From NCBI GenBank assembly GCA_965199825.1, contig OZ241329.1, positions 1,408,001 through 1,472,000 on the forward strand: a stretch of 64,000 nt of DNA, written 5' to 3'. The stretch is from Bdellovibrionales bacterium (lineage in GTDB: Bacteria > Bdellovibrionota > Bdellovibrionia > Bdellovibrionales > UBA1609). The position numbers were made by a program, and so were the translations under genes. Below the pieces are notes generated by a model. It was not told the origin of the DNA, did no database searches, and was given only the letters and a program-made list of their open reading frames with translations. Of this stretch, positions 24,290 through 31,287 are shown piece by piece; within the stretch, counting starts at the first letter, position 1, and each line of letters opens with the position of its first letter.

Positions 24290-25114
24290 TCAATTTGATG
24301 TGCGATGATGGGCACGATGATGTCCCGCGCACAACAAAGTCAAATTGGCTTCGTTATCGGTCCCACCACATGCTTTTGGAACAATGTGATGAATATCAAG
24401 ATGGCGACGTTGCATGCAGCGCTCGCCGTTATGATCGAAATGCGTGCATTGGCTATTATGGACGTGATGCACTTTTCTTTTAAGAGTCACCGTCAGTTTT
24501 GTCGTGCCCGCTGTGTCTTTGCGAAAAGGTTTTTTAAGTAGATCCAATTTCTGATTGAGCTCATGGATGGCGGCAACATGTGTTTCGCCAATGTTCGCGG
24601 GACGTTTTAATTTTTGGCTCAAAAGATCTCTGGTTCTTTCAAACACTGCGTACTCCTCTTGAGTGACCGAGAATGAAATCGAAACCCTAAGGGTATCACC
24701 AGCTTTTTGATATCGTGCCCGCTCAGGAATCGCTTTTTCGGGCTGGACCTTTGCAATTTCTTTTTCAAGATTGCGTTTTGTGCCTTTGGCAAGATCCATC
24801 CAGTGGTGAACATTGTCTTTGGTAACCACCGATGTGATGCGATTCACTTTTGAAAGAGAAAGCTCTCCCGTTTGCATTCCCAATTTCAGTTCAGGCAGTT
24901 CAGTAAATTTCTTAGCTATTTTGTTCACGATACTTGCCATCTCTTCAGAAAGCTTAAGTTGCTTGGTGGAATATTCAAACAAAGAGTGACATCCAAACTG
25001 ATAATAAGTTTTATTTTTCCAGACAATTTCTAAGGCGTTAAGTAATTCCATTTCAGATTTTCTGTGAGCATCGGCTGCTTTGACTGCCTGAGCATGAATT
25101 TTTAAATGATTCAT
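24290..25114 (-). CDS. HNH endonuclease with helical N-terminal (DUF222-like) region
   Basis: C-terminal QCTH...RC...LDIHHIVPKACGGTDNEANLTLLCAGHH; N-terminal GCHSLFEYSTKQLKLSE, GELSLSKV; AGGAG RBS. Confidence 0.9.
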   Translation of the reverse strand: MNHLKIHAQAVKAADAHRKSEMELLNALEIVWKNKTYYQFGCHSLFEYSTKQLKLSEEMASIVNKIAKKFTELPELKLGMQTGELSLSKVNRITSVVTKDNVHHWMDLAKGTKRNLEKEIAKVQPEKAIPERARYQKAGDTLRVSISFSVTQEEYAVFERTRDLLSQKLKRPANIGETHVAAIHELNQKLDLLKKPFRKDTAGTTKLTVTLKRKVHHVHNSQCTHFDHNGERCMQRRHLDIHHIVPKACGGTDNEANLTLLCAGHHRAHHRTSN

Positions 25115-25135
25115 AAATATCTCCTGTTTAGGAAG

Positions 25136-25144
25136 AGTGTATCA
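25136..25144 (-). promoter_or_regulatory. Putative extended -10 element for the HNH gene
   Basis: TG-A-TACACT on the minus strand, about 21 nt upstream of the ATG. Confidence 0.4.
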
Positions 25145-25339
25145 TGGGTTTTTGAAGTTGAGATTTTGACTCTTGCCGGATAGATAATTGTTATCTGATT
25201 TCTGAATGGTTTTTTGGCTTACAACGCGTCTCAACTCATCGGCGCAGAAACAAAAACCCTTTACACTTTGGAAATGTGTCTGTGGCCAAAAAAGTTAATT
25301 AAAAAACTCGTCAACTTAATTATTGTTTATTTACTGATT

Positions 25340-25722
25340 GCGGGCACGAAGATACTTGGTGCGAGCGGGCACTACCACGACTTCATTTCTTCACAGATTG
25401 CGGGCACGACAATAGTAGCACTATTTCACTTTTCAGAAATTGCGTACACGACGAAAAAACCATCGCTACCCAAACAGCGGGCACGATATTATCAGACTCA
25501 CACCTGATCAAATAATTTATATTTATCTAAAACGAGTAAGATACCCCAAAGAGCAAGCGACACACCGTTTTCAAAGGATCGCTTAACAAAATAATTTAAG
25601 TTTAGATAATGAGATCAAAATCAATTATATTTGAATGCGGGCACGACACCTGCAAAACTTCACTCAACAAAATCCAAAGCAGGCACGACCATTCTGATAC
25701 TCGACAGCAAAGCGGGCACGAC
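25340..25722 (+). repeat. Array of eight 11-bp GCGGGCACGAC-like direct repeats with unique spacers
   Basis: Copies start at 25340, 25365, 25400, 25442, 25477, 25637, 25679 and 25712 (0-2 mismatches each). Confidence 0.92.
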
Positions 25723-26394: not shown

Positions 26395-26999
26395 TACTCA
26401 AGATCCGAAGGGTCAACCGCAGGAGCAGCCGGAGCTGCCTTCGATGTGGGCGTGCGGTAGCGTTCGCGCCAAGGTGTATCGGGCGACTTAAAGGTCAGTG
26501 GGAAACTAATATTTGCCGAAAACATATTGAGGTTTGAGGTGAGGGCTCCACCGGTTTGATTCGTCCCGCTAAATTTTACGGTTTGATATTCGAAATTAAA
26601 CACAATCGATTCGGTAATAAAATATCCCACACCGCCGCGAAATCCAAAGGCCGACAAATTGGAATTCTGAATTTTCGCATTGTTTAAAAGATCTAAACTA
26701 AAAAAAACTCTTAAGGGAAAATAATCGGAATTGAAACCAACACCTAATCCACCGGTGTACATCGAAGAGGCTGTATCGTTTTGCAAAGCCAAGTAACTGA
26801 CTTTAAGATCCAACCCTACAAACACATAATCATAAAAGACGCCGGTTCGCGCACCCAGTGCGGGAGCGGTAAAGCTTTCGCTCTGATTGACCGTGGTGGA
26901 GCTCACATTTGCAGATCCCATTCCCAATCCAAAATTTGGCTCAAAGTAAATATCTGCAAAAGCGGGAGAACTTAAAAAAATCCAAAAAATATATTTCAC
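26394..26999 (-). CDS. Outer-membrane beta-barrel protein (about 8 strands)
   Basis: Signal peptide; alternating Gly/aromatic beta strands (GFRGGVGYFI, FNFEYQ). Confidence 0.75.
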   Translation of the reverse strand: MKYIFWIFLSSPAFADIYFEPNFGLGMGSANVSSTTVNQSESFTAPALGARTGVFYDYVFVGLDLKVSYLALQNDTASSMYTGGLGVGFNSDYFPLRVFFSLDLLNNAKIQNSNLSAFGFRGGVGYFITESIVFNFEYQTVKFSGTNQTGGALTSNLNMFSANISFPLTFKSPDTPWRERYRTPTSKAAPAAPAVDPSDLE

Positions 27000-29059
27000 G
27001 TTTTTTTCACCTCGCGATTATTAGACATTCCTTTTTGCTCGAGGAAAAGCAAAAACGCGATCTCCATCGCATCAAGTTCTAAGCTTTGGTACCGACCGGT
27101 CAGGCCGGAATGCCCGGCCGACATCTCGGTAAACATCAGTTGATGATTGGTATCGGTTTTAAGATCGCGCAGTTTGGCCAAATACTTTGCAGGCTCCCAG
27201 TACTGAACTTGCGAATCATGAAACCCTGTTGTGATCAGCAAGTGGGGATAAGCCTGGGATTTTAAATTGTCATAAGGCGAGTAAGATTTAATATACTTAT
27301 AATATTTAAGTTCATTGGGATTACCCCACTCTTCATATTCCATGGTGGTGAGTGGCAGCGACTCATCGAGCATCGTGGTTAAGGCATCAACAAAGGGCAC
27401 ACCCATCACAATGCCGTTATAGAGATGCGGCTTAAGATTGATGATTGCACCCATCAAGAGCCCTCCAGCACTTTTTCCAACCGCATAGGTGTGTTGAGGT
27501 GAAGACAATTTCTTTTTATGCAAAAATTCGGTGGCGGTAATAAAATCGTTGAATGTATTTTTCTTTTTTAAGAACTTTCCGTTTTCGTACCATGCTCGAC
27601 CCATCTCCGAGCCGCCGCGAATCCCAGCAATTGCATAAATAAACCCACGATCAATCAGGCTGACCATCTCTGAAAAAAAAGAAGGCGAATTGGTGATGCC
27701 ATAAGATCCATACCCTTCGAGTAACAAAGGTCGATTTTTAGCCGGTTTGCCCTTTTTATAAATCAGCGAGATCGGAATTTTTGCGCCGTCGCCCGCAACC
27801 GCAAAAAACCGTTTGGTTTCATAATTCTTTTTGTTAAAGCCGCCCAAAACTTCTTTTTGTTTAAGCAACTTCGACTTTTTAAGGCGCATATTGAATTCAT
27901 AAGTCGAGGGAGGCTGCCGTAACGAAGAATAAGAATAGCGCATCACCTCACTCTCATACTGATTGATCGAATGAAGCGAGGCCACAAAAGTCGGATCAGG
28001 AAACGGAATCATCGTGCTGGTTTTTTTGAGTCTCGACCAAATATGAATTTGGGGTAAACCATTTTTATGTTCTTGGAGCGCAATATAATCTTTGAACAGC
28101 TCAAACCCGTCCAGCAGTACGTCTTTGCGATGAGCAATCAAAGTCTTCCAGCTTTTGATTTCGGTTTTTTCTAACGGGCAGGTCATCACCTTATAATTTT
28201 TGGCTTTGTAGTTGGTATGAATAAAAAATGTACTGCCATCGCAATCAACCGAATACTCAAGCCGCAACTGACGCTTTTGAAAAATCTTAAATTTCCCCAC
28301 CGTTTGGTTTGCTAAAATGTAACGGGATTCCGATGAAGTCTTGCTGTCGCAACTAATAAATATAAACTTCTTTAATTTATCTTGATAAAGTCCAACATCG
28401 AACTTCTCATCTTTTTCTTCAAAAACCAGATGGTGTTTTTTGGGTTGATCCAACGTTGTGCGAAACACTTGGTGTGTTCTCAATGTTTCAGGATCTTGCT
28501 TACAAAAAAACAAGGTTTGATTGTCGGCAGCCCAAAGATGGGACTGGGTGATCATCGGAATGCGAGCGGGATGCATTTTATTTGTTTTTAAATTTTTAAT
28601 TCGCAATTCAAAAAAATTACGACCCACTTCGTCTACCGCATAAGACATCATCGAATGATCAGGACTGATTCGAATCGCCCCCACATTAAAATATTTTTTG
28701 CCGCGAGCTAAGGTGTTCACATCAAGAATAATTTGCTCTTTGGATTTCAGATGTCTGCGGCAGTAAATCGGGTAGTCGCGGTTTTTTTCAAAGCGAGCAT
28801 AATAAAAATAATCATCTTTTTGATCGGGCAGGGTTGTGTCGTCCGGCTTAATCCGCGACTTCATTTCATTAAAAAGTTTTTTACGCAAAGGCTTGGTTTG
28901 ATCTAAAACTTTTTTAAGATAGGCATTTTCTTTTTCAATATATCTAACGACTTCAGGATTTTCCCGTTGGTTGAGCCAGTAGTAATTGTCGATGCGAACA
29001 TCATTGTGTTTTTTTAAACGAACCGGTTTTTTATTTGCTTGTGGTGTCATAATGATCAC
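26996..29059 (-). CDS. ptrB: Oligopeptidase B (S9A peptidase)
   Basis: DNYYWL, GYGSYG, IRGGSEMGRAWYENGK, GKSAGG, DSQVQYWEPAK, AGHSG. Confidence 0.95.
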   Translation of the reverse strand: MIIMTPQANKKPVRLKKHNDVRIDNYYWLNQRENPEVVRYIEKENAYLKKVLDQTKPLRKKLFNEMKSRIKPDDTTLPDQKDDYFYYARFEKNRDYPIYCRRHLKSKEQIILDVNTLARGKKYFNVGAIRISPDHSMMSYAVDEVGRNFFELRIKNLKTNKMHPARIPMITQSHLWAADNQTLFFCKQDPETLRTHQVFRTTLDQPKKHHLVFEEKDEKFDVGLYQDKLKKFIFISCDSKTSSESRYILANQTVGKFKIFQKRQLRLEYSVDCDGSTFFIHTNYKAKNYKVMTCPLEKTEIKSWKTLIAHRKDVLLDGFELFKDYIALQEHKNGLPQIHIWSRLKKTSTMIPFPDPTFVASLHSINQYESEVMRYSYSSLRQPPSTYEFNMRLKKSKLLKQKEVLGGFNKKNYETKRFFAVAGDGAKIPISLIYKKGKPAKNRPLLLEGYGSYGITNSPSFFSEMVSLIDRGFIYAIAGIRGGSEMGRAWYENGKFLKKKNTFNDFITATEFLHKKKLSSPQHTYAVGKSAGGLLMGAIINLKPHLYNGIVMGVPFVDALTTMLDESLPLTTMEYEEWGNPNELKYYKYIKSYSPYDNLKSQAYPHLLITTGFHDSQVQYWEPAKYLAKLRDLKTDTNHQLMFTEMSAGHSGLTGRYQSLELDAMEIAFLLFLEQKGMSNNREVKKT

Positions 29060-29093
29060 GAGTCTACGAGCGAGTGATCAAAAATGCACCACT

Positions 29094-30059
29094 CTATTTT
29101 TCTGGCAGTGACTCGGTTTCTTCTGGAGAATTCAGCATCAAGGTTTCAGGTGGGCGATCAATTGCAAAACCGATTGTTCGCTGCAGTAAGGATTTGCATA
29201 TATCTCGGACTATCGCGGGTTGAATTCCCAAAGGTGCTTTAATTTGAATCGGCTCATTATGAATTTGAATTCGACGTGAGCTCGTTATTTTTCGACGAGG
29301 AAGAGTCTCCATAAAAATTTCTGGCAAAACTTGATCCAAATAGTTTCGATAAACTGTGAGCTCATGTGGCGAAAAAACTTGATACTCCCGCGATCGTTGA
29401 GTCAAAAACTTCAAAGAGTTGGTGATATAAAATTCGTTCTCAAAAACCTGTTCAATATCGAGTCCAAAGTATTTTGCAAATCGAAATTCAAAATCAGTCA
29501 GTTGCTCGGCGGTAGCTTGGCGCAAATCAAGATCAGAAATGGCTCCAACCAACTTTCTATTTTGTTTCCAATACTGCACGCGCCACTCACCCAAGTTTTT
29601 GTAAGAAACAGATGGATAATAGGTCTCCAATTTAAATCCCATATTTACGCCTTCGTCGATCAGCCACACCCGGGTGGAGAGCCAATTCAGAGCAAGCGAA
29701 GGATAAATTCGATCAAGTGCTAAAATAAATTGTTTCTCAAAATCAATCCCAAGAGCGCTGTACCGGGGTGGAGTATTAAAAATATTTGCGTTACGAAGGC
29801 GGTCGATATTTTCGGCAATTTGTTGAGGCGACACCTTATACAATTTCGCAAAAACAACTTCGAGTTTTTCGATAGCTGTTGCCTGCTCCAGGGTTAAATC
29901 TTGGCGGAGCGAATGGTGTTTCCATACCTGTGAAGTTTGGGGCAAACGGAGCTTTGGCAATGCGGCAAGGGCCATTGTTCCAAGGATCGCGGCTCGTCGA
30001 GAGAGCGCAACTTGAGCATCGGACTGAAAACTTAATAAAATTAAAAAAATGCCCAACAT
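29094..30059 (-). CDS. Exported hypothetical protein
   Basis: 321-aa ORF; hydrophobic N-terminus followed by SRRAAILG. Confidence 0.65.
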   Translation of the reverse strand: MLGIFLILLSFQSDAQVALSRRAAILGTMALAALPKLRLPQTSQVWKHHSLRQDLTLEQATAIEKLEVVFAKLYKVSPQQIAENIDRLRNANIFNTPPRYSALGIDFEKQFILALDRIYPSLALNWLSTRVWLIDEGVNMGFKLETYYPSVSYKNLGEWRVQYWKQNRKLVGAISDLDLRQATAEQLTDFEFRFAKYFGLDIEQVFENEFYITNSLKFLTQRSREYQVFSPHELTVYRNYLDQVLPEIFMETLPRRKITSSRRIQIHNEPIQIKAPLGIQPAIVRDICKSLLQRTIGFAIDRPPETLMLNSPEETESLPEK

Positions 30060-30134
30060 ACGAAGGCAATTGTAGGGACAAGAAAGCGTAAACTCTAGGT
30101 CAGTTTGTGTTTTGAAAGAGATTACTGGGATGGC

Positions 30135-30165
30135 AAAAAGTTAGGCCCCACAGATCTGCGGGGCC
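30135..30165 (-). terminator. Terminator after recA
   Basis: GGCCCCGCAG-AT-CTGTGGGGCC followed by TAACTTTTT on the minus strand. Confidence 0.65.
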
Positions 30166-30180
30166 ATACAAAATTCGGAC

Positions 30181-31287
30181 TTATTTTTTTGCAGCTTTGC
30201 GAGACTTTTCGGCCAAAGCTTCGGTCAAATCGGCTTTTTCTTCAGCCATAGGTTTGATCAAAGGTTTAGTGATTCCGTAGGCTTCGAGCAAACGCGCACG
30301 CAATTCTTGAACAATTTCAGGGTGAGCTTTAAAAAATTCTTTGGCTTGATCGCGGCCTTGGCCCAATCGCTCGCCTTTATAAGAAAACCAGGCTCCTGAT
30401 TTATCTACGAATTCTTTTTTAACCCCAAGATCCAAAATATCGCCCTCAGCCGAAATTCCATCGCCAAACATCAGGTCGAACTCCACCTTTTGAAAGGGAG
30501 GCGCCATCTTATTTTTGACAACTTTTACAGCTGTGCGACTGCCGGTCACTTCTTCGCCGCTTTTGATTGATCCAATTCGGCGAATGTCTAAACGGACAGA
30601 AGCATAAAACTTAAGCGCATTCCCACCAGTTGTGGTCTCAGGATTTCCGAACATCACACCAATTTTCATACGGATTTGGTTAATAAAAATAACCAAGGTG
30701 TTGCTGCGACTAATGATTGCAGTCAATTTTCTAAGAGCTTGCGACATCAACCGAGCTTGAAGCCCCATGTGACTGTCGCCCATCTCGCCCTCGATTTCGG
30801 CACGTGGAGTCAGCGCCGCAACCGAATCGACCACCACAACATCAACCGCACCTGATCGCACCAAGGTCTCAACAATTTCTAAGGCTTGCTCGCCCGTATC
30901 GGGTTGAGAGATCAGCATATCCTCAACTTTGACGCCGAGCTTTCGTGCATACCCAACATCAAGCGCATGTTCCGCATCAACGAATGCAACAGTGCCACCC
31001 GCTTTTTGGGCTTGAGCAATTGTGGTTAAAGTCAGTGTGGTTTTTCCAGAGCTCTCTGGTCCAAAGATTTCAACAATACGCCCACGTGGAAGTCCACCCA
31101 CGCCAAGAGCAATATCAAGACTCAATGCACCTGTTGAGTAAACAGGAACATCTTCATTAAAAGATTTTTGACCCTCGCCCAATTTCATAATTGAGCCTTT
31201 GCCAAATTGCTTTTCGATCGTAGAGATGGCGAGTTCTAAGGCTTTGCCCTTATCCCCCGTCGAGGTTTGGTGTCCGATGTTAGCCAT
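30181..31287 (-). CDS. recA: Recombinase RecA
   Basis: [44 protein letters not shown]. Confidence 0.99.

What the first reader, a model, noticed from the sequence alone, without database searches (positions are those of the whole stretch)
24290..25722. HNH endonuclease paired with an interspaced 11-bp repeat array whose motif also occurs, inverted, inside the gene
Seen: eight GCGGGCACGAC-like copies on the + strand (25340, 25365, 25400, 25442, 25477, 25637, 25679, 25712), separated by unrelated spacers of 14, 24, 31, 24, 149, 31 and 22 nt, lying 225-610 bp upstream of the minus-strand HNH gene. The reverse complement occurs twice in the gene. One copy is at 24501-24511 (exact; encodes AGTT in the linker just before the HNH domain). 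The other is at 24712-24722 (one mismatch, in a different reading frame). I noticed the motif nowhere else in the window. Known: the repeats are too short and irregular for CRISPR, there are no cas genes, and the protein shows no RuvC/IscB or Nop/Tas features. Inference: this is an uncharacterised nuclease-plus-array module. The motif could be a binding or cut site, the scar of repeated cut-and-insert events, or the scaffold of small guide or antisense RNAs able to pair with the HNH mRNA.
Basis: partly seen in the sequence, partly recalled or inferred. Interest (0 to 1): 0.85.

Follow-up and report, generated by a model that had tools for sequence, protein, structure and literature searches.

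The report
Mobile nuclease gene with own sites
This small DNA-cutting gene has copied itself to 27 places in a predatory-type bacterium, and the short repeat in and beside it is most likely a DNA site that the gene's own protein binds, not a CRISPR-like guide array.

Summary
The repeats are real but not unique. The genome holds 27 paralogous HNH genes (49-90% identical). All 27 have the motif core upstream, and 151 of 152 copies point away from the gene. Eight gene-less tandem arrays also exist. In-gene copies are held at DNA level, in both orientations. The protein has a ParB-type helix-turn-helix domain (hhalign 91%), a ribbon-helix-helix-like part and an HNH domain. Related genes elsewhere carry their own 14-18 bp palindromes resembling parS/NBS, in the linker and often upstream; this genome's motif is a half-site. 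Two cassettes split ddl-ftsQ and deoC-deoA, which abut in relatives, and no target duplication was found. A TTGAC sits about 150 bp too far from an extended -10 in 80 of 112 loci. No spacer match or conserved RNA fold was found. Best reading (0.5): a selfish DUF222/REP13E12-like cassette whose protein binds its own sites, represses itself and nicks nearby, so host repair copies the cassette and expands arrays. Binding and cutting are untested. Earlier scan notes report mobile DUF222-HNH genes on other DNA; those shown did not mention ParB-type sites.

The parts
24290..25114 (-). 274-aa DUF222-like HNH gene, one of 27 paralogs in the genome
24740..25069 (-). ParB/KorB/Spo0J-type helix-turn-helix DNA-binding domain (residues about 16-125); proposed reader of the motif
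24539..24694 (-). ribbon-helix-helix-like segment (residues about 141-192); probable dimerisation part (inferred)
24299..24502 (-). HNH nuclease domain with zinc ligands and H243, N257, H266, H270
   Evidence: Pfam HNH over cut-off; invariant columns; pattern intact in 23 of 24 full-length paralogs
24712..24722 (-). in-gene motif copy 1 (codons E-R-A-R), held at synonymous positions
24501..24511 (-). in-gene motif copy 2 in the linker (A-G-T-T); another clade has it inverted at a nearby position (K-S-C-P)
24310..24318 (+). third in-gene motif core (H-R-A-H codons), a direct repeat of the upstream copies, close to the right edge of the copied unit
25121..25125 (-). ribosome-binding site AGGAG
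   Evidence: sequence; conserved in paralogs
25136..25144 (-). extended -10-like element TG-A-TACACT
25145..25309 (-). length-conserved, sequence-variable leader, T-rich then A-rich, no conserved RNA fold
25310..25314 (-). TTGAC (-35-like), 173 nt before the -10 hexamer
   Evidence: at -198 to -204 in 25 of 27 paralogs
25340..25722 (+). array of eight motif half-sites (25340, 25365, 25400, 25442, 25477, 25637, 25679, 25712) pointing away from the gene; a decayed run of short duplications (inferred)
   Evidence: (table 5c)

Best explanation
A selfish cassette of about 1.05 kb (motif - TTGAC - about 150 bp - extended -10 - gene - motif) of the DUF222/REP13E12-type HNH class. SHOWN: it is multicopy and has inserted into conserved operons; the motif is tied to it and conserved as DNA; the N-terminal domain is homologous to the ParB DNA-binding domain; related subfamilies carry their own parS/NBS-like palindromes. 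INFERRED: (1) the helix-turn-helix domain binds the motif in double-stranded DNA, here as half-sites (about 0.75). (2) Binding upstream and inside the gene keeps the nuclease gene repressed. (3) When expressed, the tethered HNH domain nicks near bound sites, and host recombination or repair then copies the cassette with breakpoints at or near motif copies and produces the 16-20 bp tandem expansions. Gene-less arrays would be leftovers or landing and titration sites.
For: 27 of 27 paralogs have the core within 1200 nt upstream, 151 copies pointing away and 1 toward; 105 of 184 exact copies lie near an HNH start, 69 in 8 gene-less arrays, 10 elsewhere. The four most codon-invariant of 64 degenerate columns are the motif codons (24/24, 23/24, 21/23, 18/20; median 0.50). 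ParB-type domain. Family motifs such as TGTGCCCGGGCACA, ATTGCCCGGGCAAT, TGTTCACAAGAACA and CTCACCCGGGTGAG resemble parS TGTTTCAC-GTGAAACA and NBS TATTTCCC-GGGAAATA (PMC7383237). ParB can bind one arm of its palindrome (PMC5961200). ddl and the next ORF abut in 19 of 19 relative loci but are 2.0 kb apart in G000; the deoC-deoA gap is 12-81 nt in 16 of 19 loci and 1326 nt in G000. Homology between close paralogs ends at or within about 15 nt of motif copies in several pairs, and copy 799110 is truncated exactly at the linker copy. One contig of a related strain has a shorter array.
Confidence: 0.5

Rival explanations
1. Operator only: the protein binds the motif to repress itself, but the cassette is moved by something else, such as the genome's Y1 (IS200/REP-type) HUH transposases or plain homologous recombination. 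Arrays grow by replication slippage.
For: The genome has 17 Y1_Tnp paralogs. One gene-less array lies upstream of a Y1 gene. The nearest motif copy usually lies just upstream of TTGAC, like an operator. Gene-conversion tracts exist between paralogs (876415/904299 are 100% identical over the 3' half).
Against: The Y1 family has its own motif upstream (14 of 16 checked), and it occurs at 0 of 27 HNH loci. The HNH active site is kept in 23 of 24 full-length copies. Arrays of 11-39 copies far from any HNH gene are not needed for an operator.
Confidence: 0.25
2. A host dispersed repeat (REP-like) into which HNH cassettes happen to land; the protein does not read it.
For: Eight large gene-less arrays. 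Other dispersed motifs are interleaved with them.
Against: The motif is conserved inside the gene at synonymous sites. Different HNH subfamilies in one genome carry different motifs (G015a vs G015b, G030a vs G030b). The paired motif is found once in 300 other genomes of the order.
Confidence: 0.08
3. A domesticated host function: a damage-induced or defensive nuclease, or a nucleoid protein loaded at arrays, with copy number as a side effect.
For: Mycobacterial 13E12 HNH genes are described as LexA targets (PMC4181829, one passage). ParB half-site binding acts like a nucleoid protein in Pseudomonas.
Against: The family is patchy (16 of 31 genomes searched), expands within single lineages, breaks conserved operons and leaves broken copies. 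PADLOC hits cover only the HNH stretch or are weak.
Confidence: 0.1
4. RNA-guided or antisense system: the array is transcribed into small RNAs that guide the HNH or pair with its mRNA.
For: The upstream copies are antisense to two of the three in-gene copies. NCBIfam IscB matches the HNH stretch only (25.5 bits against a cut-off of 175). Two sigma-70-like sites lie on + in the array region, at chance level.
Against: No Rfam family at gathering score. Fold z 0.22 and -0.79. No conserved leader fold. In-gene copies in both orientations. Spacers are tandem duplicates elsewhere. The model has no room for RuvC and instead has two DNA-binding folds.
Confidence: 0.05

Closest known systems
REP13E12 / 13E12 repeat family (DUF222 PF02720 + HNH) of mycobacteria
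   Same: Multicopy chromosomal HNH genes of unknown function. DUF222 scores weakly on 3 of 113 relatives and on 14% of one neighbouring Atlas cluster. Listed as a repetitive element in PMC10589994 (passages).
   Different: This protein has no DUF222 hit and is shorter (274 aa). The passages I read mention no ParB-type domain, family-specific DNA sites or arrays.
ParB/Noc/KorB DNA-binding domain with parS/NBS sites
   Same: Homologous helix-turn-helix domain; 14-18 bp palindromes of the same build in relatives; half-site binding has a precedent.
   Different: No ParB N-terminal CTPase domain; fused to HNH; sites lie in and beside the gene, not at the origin. The host has its own ParB (C1:962701-963000) and parS-like sites at 964 kb.
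REP-associated / IS200-type Y1 transposases with their repeats (REPtrons; description recalled)
   Same: Works alike at genome scale: a small multicopy gene flanked by its own short motif, which also forms gene-less arrays. The same genome has such a Y1 family with motif ATGACATTGCCCC.
   Different: The enzyme here is HNH, not HUH. The motif is not a hairpin in this genome and also sits inside the gene.
Free-standing HNH homing endonucleases (recalled)
   Same: A selfish nuclease gene whose spread would rely on host repair.
   Different: Homing enzymes cut empty sites and lack the target in their own locus. Here the site is kept inside and beside the gene, and the 27 insertion sites are unrelated.
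IscB/HEARO (OMEGA), CRISPR and TIGR-Tas arrays
   Same: HNH domain; a conserved-length region upstream of the gene; interspaced repeats.
   Different: No RuvC-like part, no structured RNA, no constant spacer length, no foreign spacers (OMEGA features from PMC13565253 passages; TIGR-Tas recalled).

Membership tests
DUF222-HNH (REP13E12) | Pfam DUF222 domain | tested here: inconclusive
   No hit on this protein; weak hits on 3 of 113 relatives, best E 5.8e-5. A remote branch at most.
DUF222-HNH (REP13E12) | C-terminal HNH domain | tested here: met
   Pfam HNH 23.6 bits over cut-off 21.4; 113 of 113 relatives
DUF222-HNH (REP13E12) | multicopy, dispersed in the chromosome | tested here: met
   27 paralogs plus one fragment
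DUF222-HNH (REP13E12) | DNA-damage (LexA) control | not tested
   No LexA box known to me for this host; no RNA data
ParB/Noc family | ParB-type helix-turn-helix DNA-binding domain | tested here: met
ParB/Noc family | N-terminal CTPase (ParBc) domain | tested here: not met
   The helix-turn-helix match starts at residue 14-16 of 274, leaving no room; no ParBc Pfam hit
ParB/Noc family | binds a 16-bp palindrome or its half-site | not testable with these tools
   Sequence resemblance only
IscB / HEARO (OMEGA) | full-length IscB with split RuvC | tested here: not met
   NF040563 25.5 bits against a cut-off of 175, HNH stretch only; the 274 residues are accounted for by HTH, RHH-like and HNH parts
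IscB / HEARO (OMEGA) | structured omega RNA upstream | tested here: not met
   No Rfam hit at gathering score; no consensus fold in 23 aligned leaders, mean single-sequence z -0.08
CRISPR or TIGR-type guide array | regular repeat-spacer period with unique spacers | tested here: not met
   Spacers 14-149 nt here; 16-20 bp tandem duplicates at other loci
CRISPR or TIGR-type guide array | spacers match foreign DNA | tested here: inconclusive
   Best E 1 in phages and 0.4 in plasmids; the spacers are short and the collections hold few elements of this host group
Classical IS element | DDE, HUH or serine transposase | tested here: not met
   No such domain in Pfam, NCBIfam or fold searches
Classical IS element | target-site duplication | tested here: not met
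   No flank duplication above the cross-locus background at 26 of 26 loci tested; old insertions could have lost it
Mobile element (any kind) | filled versus empty site | tested here: met
   ddl-ftsQ and deoC-deoA adjacent in relatives, split by the cassette in G000; the relatives are other genera, so base-level junctions could not be read

The most novel reading that the evidence does not exclude
A transposase-free class of mobile element, found in Bdellovibrionota and in records labelled Cloacimonadota, Myxococcota, Eisenbacteria and Krumholzibacteriota. A ParB-derived reader fused to an HNH nickase co-evolves with its own parS-like site, marks its ends with that site, spreads and writes tandem arrays by site-directed nicking, and is switched by a promoter whose -35 and -10 lie about 150 bp too far apart and would work only when the DNA between them is looped or wrapped.
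Probability: 0.3. Interest if true: 0.88.

Novelty: new variant of a known kind. Interest (0 to 1): 0.7.

Why it matters
DUF222/HNH-type genes form a very large family (6533 clusters at E <= 0.001 for this query) with no known substrate or mode of spread. The loci point to a candidate substrate: each subfamily appears to carry its own recognition site in and beside its gene. That makes binding, cutting and mobility directly testable, and offers many natural pairs of ParB-type domain and site for studying how DNA specificity evolves. If confirmed, it also gives compact (about 270 aa) site-specific nucleases with 14-18 bp targets, and a mechanism for lineage-specific minisatellites in bacteria.

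Full report
Observation. A third in-gene core lies at 24310-24318 over the last HNH histidines. The window is C1:1408001-1472000 of a 2.84-Mb genome. I infer a Bdellovibrionota host from the nearest protein clusters and from named genomes that hold relatives.

The locus is one of many. tblastn and an HMM find 27 paralogs of 49-90% identity and one fragment; 24 are full length. The 11-mer has 184 exact and 439 near copies, against 0.8 and 27.8 on average for 20 letter-shuffled motifs. Of the exact copies, 105 lie within 1.3 kb of an HNH start, 69 in eight gene-less intergenic arrays of 11-39 copies, and 10 elsewhere. All 27 paralogs have the core GGGCACGA upstream (25 of 27 at the stricter 11-mer with one mismatch). 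151 copies point away from the gene and 1 toward it, and the nearest copy lies 219-265 nt from the start in 19 of 27. Some upstream arrays are near-perfect tandem repeats of 16-20 bp units, others are decayed like the one in the window. One contig from another run replaces 25349-25432 with 23 letters, that is, a shorter array. This is a single contig at depth 4.8 and weak evidence. The paired motif occurs once in 300 other genomes of the order.

The in-gene copies are kept as DNA. Among 64 conserved columns with four or more synonymous codons in 24 paralogs, the four most invariant are the motif codons R267 (24/24), A268 (23/24), R134 (21/23) and R132 (18/20); the median is 0.50. The linker copy reads sense in one clade (AGTT) and antisense in the others (KSCP), and paralog 1203249 has both. 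Orientation does not matter there, which fits a double-stranded DNA site and not pairing with the mRNA.

Relatives carry their own sites. The family is in 16 of 31 genomes searched, often multicopy. G029b loci have 2-4 upstream copies of CCGCGCCAGCGCGG plus in-gene copies (4 of 4 with an upstream flank). A Cloacimonadota-labelled genome has ATCTGTCAC about 218 nt upstream in 8 of 8 loci with that flank, plus 1-3 copies in the linker. L094 has a 29-bp tandem array of a CCCGGG-centred site upstream and one in the linker. L093, L005, L008, L034, L042, L137 and L148 have the same palindrome upstream and in the gene. G015a has one upstream and one just after the stop in 3 of 3 loci. Against generality: most G015b, G028 and G030a loci have the palindrome in the gene only, and none was found for several G026, G005, G017, G002, G001 and G024 loci. 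Perfect 14-mer palindromes are about three times denser in these genes than in their distal flanks (0.22 vs 0.075 per kb; 17 of 92 genes). The motifs are built like parS (TGTTTCAC-GTGAAACA) and NBS (TATTTCCC-GGGAAATA), which ParB and Noc read with this same domain (PMC7383237, passages seen). The G000 motif equals one arm of a CCCGGG-centred palindrome; ParB binding to one arm is documented (PMC5961200, passages seen). The closest named relative keeps both arms apart in its linker.

Mobility. The 27 copies have unrelated neighbours. One splits the cell-division operon: ddl and the next ORF overlap or abut (-23 to +81 nt) in 19 of 19 loci examined (the best 19 ddl hits of 30 family genomes; ftsQ confirmed by tblastn in 18), but are about 2.0 kb apart in G000. 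Another separates deoC and deoA: 12-81 nt in 16 of 19 loci (3 lack deoC nearby) against 1326 nt. These gene names are my own reading of the sequences, not a family scan. In close pairs the shared sequence runs from the first upstream motif to about 12 nt past the 3' motif (37218/639324, 1170848/2539304, 535332/576436 on the left side), and 799110 shares sequence with 805042 exactly from the upstream motif to the linker motif. Four other pairs stop short of the upstream motif. No target-site duplication was found at 26 loci.

The leader. TTGAC lies at -198 to -204 in 25 of 27 paralogs, and an extended -10 at about -30. Over 112 loci from all sources, 80 have such a pair, at 169-174, 178-179 or 187-192 nt; a normal promoter has about 23 (own knowledge). 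The last T of the -10 hexamer (89%) and a T-tract after TTGAC were not in the search pattern. Among 1428 long ORFs of G000, 30 have a pair at 120-230 nt, and 19 of those are at 172-173 nt, the distance of the paralogs themselves, which were not removed from the control. The sequence between drifts (46% identity) and has no conserved fold. I cannot tell whether TTGAC is a looped -35, a second promoter or an element end.

Mechanism. The best reading is a selfish cassette whose ParB-type domain binds its own site (about 0.75), represses its gene, and positions the HNH domain to nick, with host repair copying the cassette and duplicating the site (0.5 for the whole). Rivals: operator only with a helper mover (0.25), host function (0.1), host repeat (0.08), RNA guide (0.05). 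The genome's 17 Y1 transposase genes show a parallel pattern with another motif (14 of 16 checked), which is absent from all 27 HNH loci.

Known systems and novelty. The nearest known family is REP13E12/DUF222-HNH, a multicopy family without a known substrate (PMC10589994, PMC3592412, PMC4181829: passages only). Membership is remote and inconclusive. It is not IscB/OMEGA (PMC13565253 passages), not a CRISPR-type array and not a classical IS. Ten literature searches listed no description of ParB-type HNH genes with their own parS-like sites; I saw listings and abstract starts for most hits, no supplements, and subscription papers are mostly outside the library. Earlier scan notes describe mobile or damage-regulated DUF222-HNH genes on other DNA. 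Four other look-ups returned nothing and one only unrelated fibre genes. I rate it a new variant of a known kind, with a 0.3 chance of being a new class of mobile element.

Noticed in passing
G000:C1:247000 and 16 paralogs (L171:1101-1637): A family of 17 Y1 (IS200/REP-type) transposase genes; 14 of 16 checked have direct copies of ATGACATTGCCCC upstream. Shares the TGCCC end with the HNH motif.
   Followed up: partly
G000 genome-wide, e.g. C1:953713 flank, C1:1576469 flank: The most over-represented dispersed motif is TACC(T/A)TCGTTCAC (GAACGAAGGT 106 copies at 98 places, expected about 6; 80 of 106 inside ORFs; no strand bias). Unexplained.
   Followed up: partly
G000:C1:246439, 512617, 1575865, 2565798 and others: A hairpin-like motif of the type ACACC..CGGCGGTGT is interleaved with the HNH motif in several arrays and leaders (35 copies of CCGRMGGTGT).
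   Followed up: no
G000:C1:246214-246857: A nested array: three tandem blocks separated by two near-identical copies of a 137-nt segment, upstream of a Y1 gene.
   Followed up: no
G000:C1:964355 and 964918; ParB at C1:962701-963000: Two parS-like palindromes TGTTCCACGTGGAACA beside the host parB gene at the GC-skew minimum (origin).
   Followed up: partly
G000:C1:1290428, 1921305, 2083741, 2255210, 2323858, 2351008: A third multicopy family of six 308-aa genes with a zinc-ribbon-like start and DDE-like motif (transposase-like by eye).
   Followed up: no
G000:C1:484398-484723 and 484847-490650: A gene-less array directly upstream of mraY, followed by a cluster of paralogous secreted protease-like genes where the cell-division operon would continue.
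   Followed up: no
L032, L033, L038 (G030) and L054, L056, L058, L060 (G015), flanks of HNH genes: REP-like inverted repeats with a CATGGATG core lie next to HNH genes in these genomes.
   Followed up: no
G000:C1:534400-534535 and 575400-575640: Two paralogs have runs of the motif core downstream of the gene instead of strong upstream arrays.
   Followed up: partly
window:16318-16658: Sequence that looks like a tmRNA gene (by eye, from the ORF translations); not scanned.
   Followed up: no
window:19377-23866 and 26996-31287: Ordinary neighbours: RND efflux pump and TolC-like gene, outer-membrane barrel, oligopeptidase B-like gene, recA.
   Followed up: no
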